Positions 9,001 through 12,000 of a DNA stretch of 64,000 nt are shown piece by piece. The position numbers are program-made. How positions within the stretch are numbered: position 1 is the first letter of the stretch; each line of letters starts with the position of its first letter. Origin of the DNA: Escherichia coli (GTDB lineage Bacteria; Pseudomonadota; Gammaproteobacteria; Enterobacterales; Enterobacteriaceae); NCBI RefSeq assembly GCF_001677475.2, contig NZ_CP015229.1; one strand, written 5' to 3'.

Positions 9001-12000
9001 GTTCAGCGTCGATATCCGGACCTTGCAGACCGAAAACTTCGCAGCCCAACTGATGGAACTGACGATAACGCCCTTTCTGCGGACGCTCGTGACGGAACAT
9101 CGGCCCGATATACCACAGACGCTGTTCCTGATTGTACAGAAGACCATGCTCGATGCCGGCGCGTACACAGCCCGCCGTCCCTTCAGGGCGCAGAGTCAGG
9201 CTGTCGCCATTGCGATCCTCAAAGGTGTACATCTCTTTTTCAACCACGTCGGTGACTTCACCAATCGCACGTTTGAATAGCGGGGTCTGCTCTACAATCG
9301 GCAAGCGGATTTCACTGTAACCGTAGCTGCCGAGCACGTTTTTCAGTGTGCCTTCAATGCGCTGCCAGATGGCCGTTTCGCCAGGCAGGTAATCGTTCAT
9401 GCCGCGAATGGCTTGAATGTTTTTTGCCACGTTTATTCTCTTTCTGAATATAAAAATGAACCCTCAACGCTTCCCTCAATGTTTCGGGAGCCATGCGGGT
9501 TCAATCATACACGGGAAGCGAGGCGCTTCCCATCACGTTATTATTTTTCAACCTGCTGAACGTCAATTCGACGCGCTTCGTCCAGCTGACTGGCTTTCGC
9601 ACGAATGCGTGCTTCCAGCTGGTCGATCATATCGTTGTTGTCCAGACGGTCTTTGCGCACGCCATCTTCATAGAGGCCGCTTTTCTTGTTGCCACCGGTG
9701 ACGCCGAGTGTAGAAACCAGCGCCTCACCTGGGCCATTCACCACGCAGCCGATAATCGAAACGTCCATCGGAGTGATGATATCTTCCAGGCGTTGCTCCA
9801 GCGCGTTAACCGTACCGATAACATCAAATTCCTGACGCGAACAGGTCGGGCAGGCGATGAAGTTGATCCCTCGCGAACGGATACGCAGCGATTTCAAAAT
9901 ATCGAAACCGACTTTGATCTCTTCAACCGGATCGGCCGCCAGCGATACGCGCAGCGTGTCGCCGATGCCTTCAGACAGCAGCAGACCTAAACCAATGGCG
10001 GATTTAACCGCCCCGCTGCGCGCACCACCCGCTTCGGTGATCCCCAGATGCAGCGGCTGATCGATCTGTTTTGCCAGCAAACGATAAGACTCAACAGCGA
10101 GGAAGACGTCTGACGCTTTCACGCTGACTTTGAACTGATCGAAGTTCAGGCGATCGAGATGATCAACATGACGCATGGCGGATTCCAGCAACGCCTGCGG
10201 CGTCGGTTCGCCATACTTTTCTTGCAGATCTTTTTCCAGCGATCCGGCGTTAACGCCAATACGGATCGGAATGTTTTTATCGCGCGCACAGTCAACCACT
10301 ATGCGAATACGCTCTTCATTACCGATATTGCCAGGGTTAATACGCAGACAATCGACGCCGTATTCCGCTACTTTCAGCGCAATGCGATAGTCGAAGTGGA
10401 TGTCAGCCACCAGCGGCACGTTAACCCGCTGTTTGATGAGTTTGAACGCTTCTGCCGCGTCCATCGTCGGTACGGAGACACGGACGATATCAGCGCCAAC
10501 GCGTTCCAGCGCCTTGATTTGATTGACCGTTGCTTCGACGTCTGTCGTACGCGTATTGGTCATGGACTGTACGGCGATGGGAGCACCATCGCCAATCGGC
10601 ACATTCCCAACGTAAATACGTGTTGATTTTCTACGTTGAATTGGAGCCTGGTTATGCATGAAAAATCTCCCGCGTTACCCGTCTGTTACTGCGCCGCTGA
10701 TTGTTCGGCATTGAGGGTCAGACGCGCAACCTGGTTAGTTCTGATAAAACGACTCAGATCGACAGGTTTCCCTTGATACTGGATCTGTACTGCGGCTGGC
10801 GCACCAATTTTCAGTTTGTACGGTGCCTGGCCGGTTAAGTTCAAATTACCGTCTTTACGCTGCATACCGCTAAACAATTTTTTACCGGTAGCATCAGTAA
10901 CCTCCAGCCAACAATCGGCAGTAAAGTTCATCACCAGCGCATTCGGATCAGCCACCGGCGTGGTCACGCCAGCCTGATCGGTTGGCAACGGCGCAGCACC
11001 ATCTGGCGTTGTTGTTGCCGTTGGTGCCGGGGTCGCGGCGGTATCAACATTTGCCTGCGAAGGCGAAACAACCGCATTCTGTTGCGGATCAACAGCTGGT
11101 GCTGGCGCAGTTACGGCAGGTGTTTGCGTGTTGGTTGCGGTAGTATCCACAGACGCTGGCGGCGTGGACGTTGTAGCTGGGTCTGTAGTTGTCGACGTAT
11201 TTAACGGAACACTCTGCCCCTGCTCGCTATTACTGCTCAGTTCCGCCGAAGATTGATCGGCCATAGTGGTGATCTCTTCCTGCTGAGCTTTGTGGTCTTG
11301 CCACCACCAGGCACCGCTCAGGCCGATAACCACAAACAACACCAGCCAGGTGAAGGTCATCAGCCAGCCGTCGCGTTTTTTGCGGCGTTTACCGAGGGAA
11401 AAACTCTGCATCGGCGCAACTTTTGCAGCCCGTAGTGGAGCCTGCTTTTCCAGCCCTGGCAGCAGTTCTTCTTCTGGAATATGTACCAGACGCGCATAAG
11501 AGCGGATATATCCGCGCAGGAATGTTGAAGCAAGATCGGCGGGTGCCTTATCTTCTTCAATGTCGCGTACCGTGGAAACCTTCAGGCAAAGTCGCTCGGC
11601 AACGGCCTGCTGACTAAGTCCTAGTTGTTCGCGAGCATTACGCAGGCGAGCGCCGGTAGTAAGTGCTTCATTTTGGTCGTGCGTGGCTTCAGTATTCATT
11701 CGCTGCAGGTACGTTTAAATGAGAATTGAGATGCCGGTGAACCATCATGCTCACCCACACCGCGAAACATCCGTTAAGTTAACCGTTATCATACAGTATA
11801 AGACCGTCTGTGTGCTCGTGACAAAGCCCACATTCACTAAGGCTAACTTACTGTTGCATCGTTACATACTGCCTTAAAGTCAGCAAAAACGCACCGTTAA
11901 TATTGACCAGACAATTGCAACTTAATACTTCATTCATAAAAGATTACGCCACGGTACATAAAGTAACCGTGGCGTAATGGCTATCAGACCGCTTTAATGT

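What the first reader, a model, noticed from the sequence alone, without database searches (positions are those of the whole stretch)
9431..9540. Possible SroE sRNA between ispG and hisS
The 110-bp spacer matches the reported location of the processed sRNA SroE; I could not verify the sequence itself.
Basis: established knowledge. Interest (0 to 1): 0.15.

Follow-up and report, generated by a model that had tools for sequence, protein, structure and literature searches.

The report
Known SroE RNA overlapping hisS promoter
The 110-bp gap between the ispG and hisS genes of this E. coli window does encode the already catalogued small RNA SroE, and the same DNA also carries the start site of the hisS messenger, so it is an ordinary, known feature with one under-appreciated twist.

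Summary
Confirmed and already known. Window 9431-9540 is the 110-bp spacer between ispG (9541-10659, -) and hisS (8156-9430, -). The Rfam SroE model (RF00371) matches the minus strand at 9541..9450 over its full length: 116.6 bits against a gathering score of 51, E 1.8e-28. The RNA folds into two hairpins plus a U-run (z -4.7). The locus is single-copy in 5425 of 5426 complete E. coli genomes.

SroE is detectable between ispG and hisS in Salmonella, Citrobacter, Klebsiella, Kosakonia and others. It is not detectable in Shimwellia, Rahnella or Serratia, despite identical synteny.

Two published 5'-end datasets place a primary transcription start at window 9496, inside SroE. It lies 8 nt after an invariant TATGAT, and full-length reads from it cover hisS-yfgM-bamB. 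The invariant 5' half of SroE, which shows no compensatory changes, is therefore also the hisS promoter.

Hairpin 2 with its U-run looks like a terminator, but it is leaky in E. coli. Its 5' arm lies upstream of the hisS start.

The trans function of SroE remains unproven; the evidence is weak ligB binding in vitro and SdsR chimeras on Hfq. Low interest.

The parts
9541..10659 (-). ispG (gcpE) coding sequence; stop codon TAA at 9543-9541
   Evidence: ORF list; NCBIfam NF001540 526 bits; annotated ispG in RefSeq E. coli
9450..9541 (-). SroE RNA (Rfam RF00371), 92 nt: 5' end on the last base of the ispG stop codon, 3' end in the U-run
   Evidence: cmscan 116.6 bits vs gathering 51, E 1.8e-28, model 1-92/92; MFE -41.6 kcal/mol, z -4.73
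9513..9531 (-). Hairpin 1: GGGAAGCG-CCU-CGCUUCCC. The 7-bp core is invariant in all 16 aligned spacers. As DNA it is a perfect inverted repeat that spans the -35 hexamer and most of the -35/-10 spacer of the hisS promoter.
   Evidence: Rfam structure, MFE, invariant columns in A1, 0 compensatory changes, single occurrence in the window
9527..9533 (-). Weak -35 region of the hisS promoter (ATGGGA with an 18-nt spacer, or TGGGAA with 17; 3/6 each). It reads TTGGGA (4/6) in K. quasipneumoniae, where the scan tool calls the promoter.
   Evidence: Sequence; scan of L023 TTGGGA-18-TATGAT 9/12. Inference for E. coli: the scan tool did not call it.
9504..9509 (-). -10 hexamer TATGAT (5/6 to TATAAT) of the hisS-yfgM-bamB promoter. 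It lies in the single-stranded linker of SroE and is invariant in 16/16 spacers.
   Evidence: Invariant T35-T40 in A1; position 8 nt upstream of the mapped TSS
9496..9496 (-). Transcription start site (G) of hisS-yfgM-bamB, 66 nt upstream of the hisS GTG and 45 nt into SroE
   Evidence: Kim et al. 2012 TSS 2638663(-) with upstream string ending ...GTGTATGATTGAACCCG (PMC3415461 supplement); SMRT-Cappable-seq operon b2514|b2513|b2512 TSS 2640641 reverse (PMC6131387 supplement); coordinate conversion via the hisS start
9457..9503 (-). Hairpin 2: closing stem UGAACCC/GGGUUCA around a 33-nt imperfect interior. The interior is replaced wholesale in other genera.
   Evidence: Rfam structure; folds of 11 orthologs, 10 of which keep the closing stem next to the U-run; alignment A1
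9450..9456 (-). U-run UUUUUAU following hairpin 2 (terminator-like tail; the 3' end of the Rfam model)
   Evidence: Sequence. The orthologous hairpin in L024 is called terminator-like. Not called in E. coli, and no Term-seq 3' end was reported there.
9431..9449 (-). hisS translation-initiation region (AAGAGAA Shine-Dalgarno-like block at 9442-9436), conserved in every genus examined, including those without SroE
   Evidence: Spacer comparison
8156..9430 (-). hisS coding sequence (GTG start at 9430-9428)
   Evidence: ORF list; NCBIfam TIGR00442 523 bits

Best explanation
The element is E. coli SroE, a known ~92-nt RNA from the ispG-hisS junction. That identity is close to certain.

My best reading of how it works is that it is a composite junction element rather than a dedicated regulator gene.

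(1) Transcripts from promoters upstream of ispG run through the spacer. The two stable hairpins delimit a fragment whose 5' end is produced by processing at the ispG stop codon. Its 3' end lies at the hairpin 2/U-run, produced either by weak intrinsic termination or by exonuclease arrest. That fragment is SroE.

(2) The same DNA is the core promoter of hisS-yfgM-bamB, with -10 TATGAT at 9509-9504 and +1 at G9496. This explains why hairpin 1 and the linker are invariant in sequence with no compensatory changes. It also explains why transposon insertions in 'SroE' are not tolerated in Salmonella.

(3) The TSS lies immediately 3' of the 5' arm of hairpin 2, so promoter-derived hisS mRNAs cannot form the terminator-like hairpin, while ispG read-through RNAs can.

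(4) The released RNA can sit on Hfq and pair with SdsR in starved cells, but no regulatory output has been shown.

Shown: identity, structure propensity, TSS position, read-through and conservation pattern. Inferred: the processing route, terminator bypass and by-product status.
For: Identity: cmscan 116.6 bits vs 51; ispG/hisS flanks; single copy in 5425/5426 E. coli genomes.

Structure: z -4.73. Hairpin 2 keeps its closing stem next to the U-run in 10/11 genera although its interior ranges from 5 to ~60 nt, and in L024 it is called terminator-like.

Promoter: two independent primary-5'-end datasets give the same base, Kim 2012 at 2638663(-) and SMRT-Cappable-seq at 2640641 reverse, with full-length reads covering hisS-yfgM-bamB. 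TATGAT is invariant in 16/16 spacers and is called as a promoter in K. quasipneumoniae.

No covariation: 0 pairs with changes on both sides, 94.6% paired only through invariance.

Promoter-derived 5'UTR is unstructured: z -0.22.

Read-through: all three ispG-containing SMRT-Cappable-seq operons continue into hisS.

Literature: SroE is classed as processed from a longer transcript (PMC8313858). It is detected in all conditions with no differential expression (PMC12266141). There is no overexpression phenotype (PMC4606813). Only 1 of 10 predicted targets bound, weakly (PMC6172242). SroE is 'required' in TraDIS next to essential hisS (PMC3632133).
Against: The E. coli promoter is weak by consensus (8/12) and was not called by the scan tool. 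Kim's TSS rests on 6 reads.

Promoter function does not by itself explain why the -35/-10 spacer (the 3' arm of hairpin 1) is invariant, so an RNA-level or protein-binding role for hairpin 1 remains open.

No 3' end at the U-run is listed in the Term-seq tables of Adams 2021 as held, and there is no ispG-only operon in SMRT-Cappable-seq. How the SroE 3' end forms is therefore not shown.

SdsR:::SroE chimeras on Hfq (PMC10954441) suggest the RNA may be more than a by-product.

The original description (Vogel et al. 2003) could not be read, so the 5'-end status is taken from secondary sources.
Confidence: 0.6

Rival explanations
1. SroE is a genuine trans-acting, Hfq-associated, 3'UTR-derived sRNA or sponge, like CpxQ, SroC or SdhX. 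It would be cut from the ispG mRNA, held on Hfq through its terminal hairpin and U-tail, and base-pair through its conserved linker or hairpin 2 with other RNAs such as SdsR.
For: The architecture fits: same strand as the parent gene, 5' end at the stop codon, and a terminal hairpin plus U-run. SroE is listed among the 26 sRNAs associated with Hfq at 24 h of N starvation (PMC12539622). sdsR:::sroE chimeras in RIL-seq rise to 45-70 reads at N-24 (PMC10954441). Weak in-vitro binding to ligB (PMC6172242). -1.75-fold in K. pneumoniae delta-hfq (PMC3136514). The invariant linker could be a seed.
Against: 9 of 10 predicted targets did not bind. No biofilm, motility or fimbriae phenotype on overexpression. 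No (ARN)x Hfq motif (PMC5575007). The Hfq dependence in Klebsiella is below that study's 3-fold threshold. The best predicted SdsR duplex (-20.4 kcal/mol) is matched by 9 of 40 shuffles. The 'sroE' annotation also covers the hisS-promoter 5'UTR, so the chimeras may come from hisS mRNA. The invariance is explained at least in part by the promoter.
Confidence: 0.22
2. SroE is a cis-acting leader of hisS, the T-box-like or attenuator idea of Barquist et al. 2013. It would sense tRNA-His or HisRS and tune hisS expression on transcripts that carry it.
For: It always sits directly 5' of hisS. It was scored as required in Salmonella TraDIS (PMC3632133). Hairpin 2 plus the U-run could act as an attenuator on ispG read-through transcripts, which do reach hisS.
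Against: The hisS-specific promoter starts at 9496, so its mRNA lacks hairpin 1 and the 5' arm of hairpin 2 and is unstructured (z -0.22). No T-box or other cis-regulatory Rfam family matches. The hairpin 2 interior, where a specifier would sit, is not conserved. No tRNA-like element. The ATG at 9494 that could open a leader peptide is absent in Klebsiella, Kosakonia and Superficieibacter. The TraDIS requirement is explained by disruption of the promoter.
Confidence: 0.1
3. Hairpin 1 is primarily a DNA operator. The perfect inverted repeat GGGAAGC-N5-GCTTCCC spans the -35 hexamer and the spacer of the hisS promoter and would bind an unidentified dimeric regulator. On this view the RNA hairpin is incidental.
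For: A 7-bp perfect inverted repeat, invariant in 16/16 spacers with a variable centre and no covariation. It lies within about -23 to -35 relative to the mapped TSS at 9496, the typical position of a repressor site.
Against: No regulator of hisS is known to me (my own knowledge, not checked). The palindrome occurs once in the window and the 220-bp query spanning the spacer has one place per genome, so there is no regulon signature. The closing pair toggles G-C/G-U in 11 of 16 sequences, which is compatible with RNA pairing. A stable 3'UTR hairpin is also a sufficient reason for conservation.
Confidence: 0.07

Closest known systems
SroE RNA (Rfam RF00371; EcoCyc G0-9385; first reported in the E. 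coli RNomics screen of Vogel et al. 2003, cited from memory, paper not held)
   Same: Full-length covariance-model match at 116.6 bits, the same ispG(gcpE)-hisS location and strand, and the same two-hairpin structure. It is the same gene.
   Different: Nothing differs in sequence or context. RefSeq/PGAP records simply do not annotate it.
3'UTR-derived, RNase E-processed Hfq sRNAs (CpxQ, SroC, SdhX, NarS)
   Same: Lies at the 3' end of an mRNA on the same strand, has a processed 5' end according to the literature, a terminal hairpin plus U-run, and Hfq-associated chimeras in RIL-seq.
   Different: No validated target or phenotype. No detectable termination at its 3' end in Term-seq or SMRT-Cappable-seq tables. 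Its body contains the promoter of the downstream essential gene.
Aminoacyl-tRNA synthetase leaders (T-box RF00230; thrS operator; pheST attenuator)
   Same: Structured RNA immediately upstream of a synthetase gene; proposed as an analogy by Barquist et al. 2013.
   Different: No T-box match, no conserved specifier or leader peptide, and the gene's own TSS lies inside the element, so most of it is absent from hisS-promoter mRNA.
Intercistronic terminator/promoter overlaps in operons with internal promoters
   Same: A terminator-like hairpin between two co-directional genes with an internal promoter for the downstream gene. Read-through and promoter-initiated transcripts coexist.
   Different: Here the TSS falls between the two arms of the hairpin, so the two transcript classes differ in their ability to form it. 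In Rahnella the whole 10/12 consensus promoter sits inside the hairpin.

Membership tests
Rfam RF00371 sroE | Covariance-model score at or above the curated gathering score (51 bits) over the full model | tested here: met
   116.6 bits, E 1.8e-28, model 1-92/92, minus strand 9541..9450
Rfam RF00371 sroE | Location between ispG (gcpE) and hisS, same strand as both | tested here: met
   ORFs and NCBIfam; the same synteny in all 25 orthologous loci fetched
Rfam RF00371 sroE | Two-hairpin secondary structure | tested here: met
   The MFE reproduces both Rfam helices, z -4.73
Rfam RF00371 sroE | Structure supported by compensatory base changes | tested here: inconclusive
   0 pairs with changes on both sides in 16 distinct spacers; pairing is no better than column shuffles. 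Hairpin 2 is supported only by persistence of a hairpin despite interior replacement.
Rfam RF00371 sroE | Expressed as a discrete ~90-nt RNA with a processed 5' end | not testable with these tools
   Literature only: classed as processed (PMC8313858); detected in all growth conditions (PMC12266141); original paper not held
3'UTR-derived Hfq-dependent trans-acting sRNA | Rho-independent terminator forming the 3' end | tested here: inconclusive
   Hairpin plus U5 present. Not called by the terminator scan in E. coli but called in the L024 ortholog. No 3' end in the held Term-seq tables.
3'UTR-derived Hfq-dependent trans-acting sRNA | Hfq association | not testable with these tools
   Literature: RIL-seq sdsR:::sroE chimeras; listed as Hfq-associated at N-24; only -1.75-fold in K. 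pneumoniae delta-hfq
3'UTR-derived Hfq-dependent trans-acting sRNA | Conserved seed with a validated target | tested here: inconclusive
   The linker is invariant but coincides with the -10 hexamer. Only weak ligB binding in vitro. The SdsR duplex prediction is not better than shuffles.
T-box leader (RF00230) / synthetase attenuator | Match to the T-box model, or a conserved specifier / leader peptide | tested here: not met
   No T-box hit at gathering in the window, nor at E<=0.5 in 12 orthologous loci. The hairpin 2 interior and ATG 9494 are not conserved.
Sigma-70 promoter (hisS-yfgM-bamB) | -10/-35 hexamers at proper spacing upstream of an experimentally mapped primary 5' end | tested here: met
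   TATGAT 5/6 at -13..-8, -35 3/6. TSS from two datasets. The consensus scan is negative in E. coli and positive in K. quasipneumoniae.
REP element (RepRanger label for sroE, PMC12306157) | Repeated extragenic palindrome present in many copies | tested here: not met
   The palindrome occurs once in 64 kb even with 3 mismatches allowed. The 220-bp query spanning the spacer has one place per genome.

The most novel reading that the evidence does not exclude
'SroE' is conserved mainly as DNA. Its invariant 5' half would be the core promoter of the essential hisS-yfgM-bamB unit, possibly with an operator-like inverted repeat spanning -35 and the spacer. Its 3' half would be an insulating terminator whose 5' arm is deliberately placed upstream of the TSS, so that only ispG read-through RNA can terminate. 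The catalogued sRNA would then be largely a by-product, its TraDIS 'essentiality' a promoter effect, and the SdsR chimeras a sign of SdsR acting on the hisS 5'UTR.
Probability: 0.3. Interest if true: 0.35.

Novelty: already known. Interest (0 to 1): 0.15.

Why it matters
On its own this confirms a catalogued E. coli sRNA that automatic annotation omits. The modest added value is a caution. An 'orphan sRNA' scored as essential and proposed as a T-box-like leader can be explained by the promoter of the downstream essential gene lying inside it. Any deletion or overexpression study of SroE must therefore separate the RNA from the hisS promoter. It also shows that strong sequence invariance without covariation in an Rfam family can reflect a DNA-level signal.

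Tried and rejected
1. A strict DNA pattern from the Rfam 'core' (TGTATGATNGNNCCNGCATGGCTC) on genome contigs returned only 13 species. More distant orthologs were reached through HisS proteins instead.

2. T-box or riboswitch leader: no Rfam hit.

3. tRNA mimic for HisRS autoregulation: ARAGORN finds nothing. The short resemblances to tRNA-His that I noticed by eye were not pursued.

4. Leader peptide: the minus-strand ORF 9494..9354 (46 aa, ATG 2 nt after the TSS) is rejected because the ATG is absent in Klebsiella, Kosakonia and Superficieibacter.

5. REP element label from RepRanger: the palindrome is unique.

6. A consensus promoter at the Rahnella/Serratia position: E. coli has GCGTTG where they have TATAAT.

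7. SdsR-SroE pairing: global duplexfold was meaningless (34% of shuffles as good), and the local search was not significant (9/40).

8. Sources not obtainable:
- Vogel 2003.
- Melamed 2016 RIL-seq tables.
- Cappable-seq 2016 held files have no entries in this coordinate range.
- The K. pneumoniae TSS sheet of Kim 2012 was truncated.
- No held paper describes the hisS promoter.
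Full report
**Observation.** The window carries, on the minus strand, hisS (8156..9430, 424 aa, GTG start) and ispG (9541..10659, 372 aa). Both were confirmed with NCBIfam equivalog models: hisS TIGR00442 at 523 bits and ispG NF001540 at 526 bits. 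rodZ lies upstream and yfgM downstream.

Rfam RF00371 (sroE) matches 9541..9450 on the minus strand at 116.6 bits against a gathering score of 51, with E 1.8e-28 and the full model covered. The refuting condition, no covariance-model hit, is therefore not met, and both the observation and the interpretation stand.

**Anatomy.** All coordinates below are on the minus strand and were verified.
- The RNA starts on the last A of the ispG stop codon.
- Hairpin 1 is GGGAAGCG-CCU-CGCUUCCC (9531..9513).
- A linker GUGUAUGAU follows.
- Hairpin 2 has the closing stem UGAACCC/GGGUUCA (9503..9497 and 9463..9457) around a 33-nt imperfect interior.
- A U-run UUUUUAU (9456..9450) comes next.
- The hisS ribosome-binding region (AAGAGAA at 9442..9436) and GTG follow.

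The 113-nt spacer RNA folds at -41.6 kcal/mol, against -24.2 +/- 3.7 for dinucleotide shuffles (z -4.73). The simple consensus scans call neither a promoter nor a terminator here.

**Distribution.** The 220-bp region is present once in 5425 of 5426 complete E. coli genomes, at >=99% identity in 5317 of them. PGAP-annotated records show no feature between ispG and hisS.

A strict DNA pattern found 13 further species (Escherichia, Citrobacter, Salmonella arizonae, Intestinirhabdus), all scoring 102.8-116.6 bits for sroE. Loci reached through HisS orthologs all keep rodZ-ispG-hisS-yfgM-bamB-der synteny.

| Locus | sroE score (bits) |
|---|---|
| Salmonella | 117.1 |
| K. quasipneumoniae | 81 |
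| Superficieibacter (L019), and L025 with an identical spacer | 77.4 |
| Klebsiella sp. RIT-PI-d | 74.7 |
| Kosakonia | 54.9 |
| L024 | 54.5 |
| Entomohabitans | 53.0 |
| Shimwellia, ESL0689, Rahnella, Serratia | no match at E<=0.5 |

The family is thus confined to part of the Enterobacteriaceae, although the gene pair and a 90-139-bp spacer are much older.

**Comparative pattern.** In an alignment of 16 distinct SroE-type spacers (A1), TGGGAAGCG...GCTTCCC(G/A)TGTATGAT is invariant apart from that one position, and GGGTTCATTTTT and the ribosome-binding region are nearly so. The interior of hairpin 2 is replaced wholesale, from 33 nt in E. coli down to 5 nt in L024.

Counting pairs gives 94.6% pairing but zero pairs with changes on both sides, and column shuffles do equally well. 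My sample therefore gives no covariation support; the helices are invariant rather than co-varying.

The positive structural evidence is different. In 10 of 11 genera the segment still folds into a hairpin whose closing stem abuts the U-run, whatever lies inside. In L024 the scan tool calls it terminator-like. That is how an intrinsic terminator typically evolves (established knowledge, inference here).

**The hisS promoter lies inside SroE.** Kim et al. 2012 list a primary 5' end at 2638663(-) in NC_000913.2, assigned to sroE, with the upstream string ...GCTTCCCGTGTATGATTGAACCCG (PMC3415461 supplement). Using the hisS start as anchor (2638597 = window 9430), this is G9496. It lies 8 nt downstream of the invariant TATGAT and 66 nt upstream of the hisS GTG.

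From the Term-seq tables the v3 hisS start is 2640575, which predicts 2640641 for this TSS. SMRT-Cappable-seq, which captures 5'-triphosphate ends and reads full-length transcripts, lists exactly 'b2514|b2513|b2512, TSS 2640641, reverse' (PMC6131387 supplement). Two independent methods thus agree to the base, and the second shows that these transcripts cover hisS-yfgM-bamB.

In K. quasipneumoniae the same hexamer is called as a promoter (TTGGGA-18-TATGAT, 9/12). In E. coli the -35 is only 3/6, which explains the negative scan.

Rahnella and Serratia instead carry 10/12 promoters (TTGAAC/TTGAAT-18-TATAAT) directly 5' of the conserved CGGGTTCATTTTT. In Rahnella that promoter sits inside hairpin 2.

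**Consequences.**
- The 5' arm of hairpin 2 (9503..9497) is upstream of +1, so promoter-derived hisS mRNA cannot form that hairpin. RNA from 9496 to hisS +30 folds no better than shuffles (z -0.22).
- ispG read-through RNA carries the whole hairpin.
- In E. coli that hairpin is at most a leaky terminator. All three ispG-containing SMRT-Cappable-seq operons continue into hisS, and no ispG-only unit is listed. The Term-seq tables of Adams et al. 2021, as held, list 3' ends inside hisS and ispG but none at 264058x-264061x.
- The 'requirement' for SroE in Salmonella TraDIS, which led Barquist et al. to suggest a T-box-like leader (PMC3632133), is most simply a promoter or polarity effect on essential hisS (inference).

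**What the RNA does.** The literature found here treats SroE as uncharacterised.
- It is classed among sRNAs processed from longer transcripts.
- It is detected in all nutrient conditions without differential expression.
- It gives no biofilm, motility or fimbriae phenotype when overexpressed.
- It has no (ARN)x motif.
- It changes -1.75-fold in K. pneumoniae delta-hfq.
- Of ten predicted targets, only ligB bound, weakly, in vitro.

The one concrete interaction is sdsR:::sroE chimeras on Hfq in N-starved cells, with 45 and 70 reads in two of the N-24 libraries (PMC10954441 supplement). I recovered E. coli SdsR and searched for local duplexes. The best is -20.4 kcal/mol, between SdsR nt 28-50 and window 9478..9458, and it is matched by 9 of 40 shuffles. 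The computation therefore neither supports nor locates the pairing. That site lies downstream of 9496, so the chimeras could come from hisS mRNA rather than from SroE.

**Verdict.** The finding is real and is the known SroE. My best explanation (0.6) is a composite junction: an ispG 3'UTR or intercistronic fragment bounded by two hairpins, overlapping the hisS-yfgM-bamB promoter and a leaky terminator-like hairpin. Any trans role is secondary and unproven.

Rivals:
- A genuine Hfq-dependent trans-acting sRNA or SdsR sponge (0.22).
- A cis-acting hisS leader (0.10).
- Hairpin 1 acting as a DNA operator (0.07).

Novelty is 'already known' and interest is low.

Noticed in passing
window 23693-23978 (+): Full-length Rfam match to ryfA RNA (RF00126, 263.7 bits vs gathering 80).
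   Followed up: no
window 60707-60854 (-): Full-length Rfam match to GlmY (RF00128, 147.1 bits vs gathering 33).
   Followed up: no
window 31234-31343 (-): Full-length Rfam match to the iscRS stability element (RF01517, 118.8 bits vs gathering 40).
   Followed up: no
window 9807 (-), inside ispG: Kim et al. 2012 list a second, weak TSS (2638974, 4 reads) assigned to hisS with a 377-nt leader. It maps inside the ispG coding sequence (string located).
   Followed up: partly
window about 10836, 11780 and 11859 (-): SMRT-Cappable-seq TSSs at 2641981, 2642925 and 2643004 give ispG-hisS-yfgM and rodZ-ispG-hisS transcripts. ispG therefore has a promoter inside rodZ, and the whole rodZ-ispG-hisS stretch is co-transcribed in part. 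Window positions were derived by the constant offset 2,631,145 and were not checked against sequence.
   Followed up: no
window 9354-9494 (-): A 46-aa ORF opens with an ATG 2 nt after the hisS TSS and overlaps the hisS start out of frame. Its translation by eye contains several His codons. The ATG is not conserved beyond Escherichia, Salmonella and Citrobacter, so I rejected it as a leader peptide.
   Followed up: partly
L021 2436-2465 (Rahnella) and L022 2434-2463 (Serratia): Near-consensus sigma-70 promoters (10/12) lie immediately 5' of the conserved CGGGTTCATTTTT block. In Rahnella the promoter is enclosed by the arms of a -35.7 kcal/mol hairpin. The hisS promoter has moved relative to the hairpin between lineages.
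   Followed up: partly
L022 2377-2396 (Serratia); L027 just after the ispG stop (ESL0689): Genera without SroE have a compact GC hairpin plus U-run directly after ispG. That is a conventional ispG terminator in the place of hairpin 1.
   Followed up: no
protein P0002: A 608-aa protein labelled Trichuris trichiura is 100% identical to E. coli HisS over 97% of the query and also carries the YfgM domain (PF09976). This is almost certainly E. coli contamination and a fused gene call in a nematode assembly.
   Followed up: no
L028 113-257 (E. coli strain 600468): The SdsR/RyeB and antisense SraC/RyeA pair was recovered cleanly by Rfam (116.4 and 178.5 bits), but it is not annotated in that RefSeq record. 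As with SroE, PGAP leaves these sRNAs unannotated.
   Followed up: no
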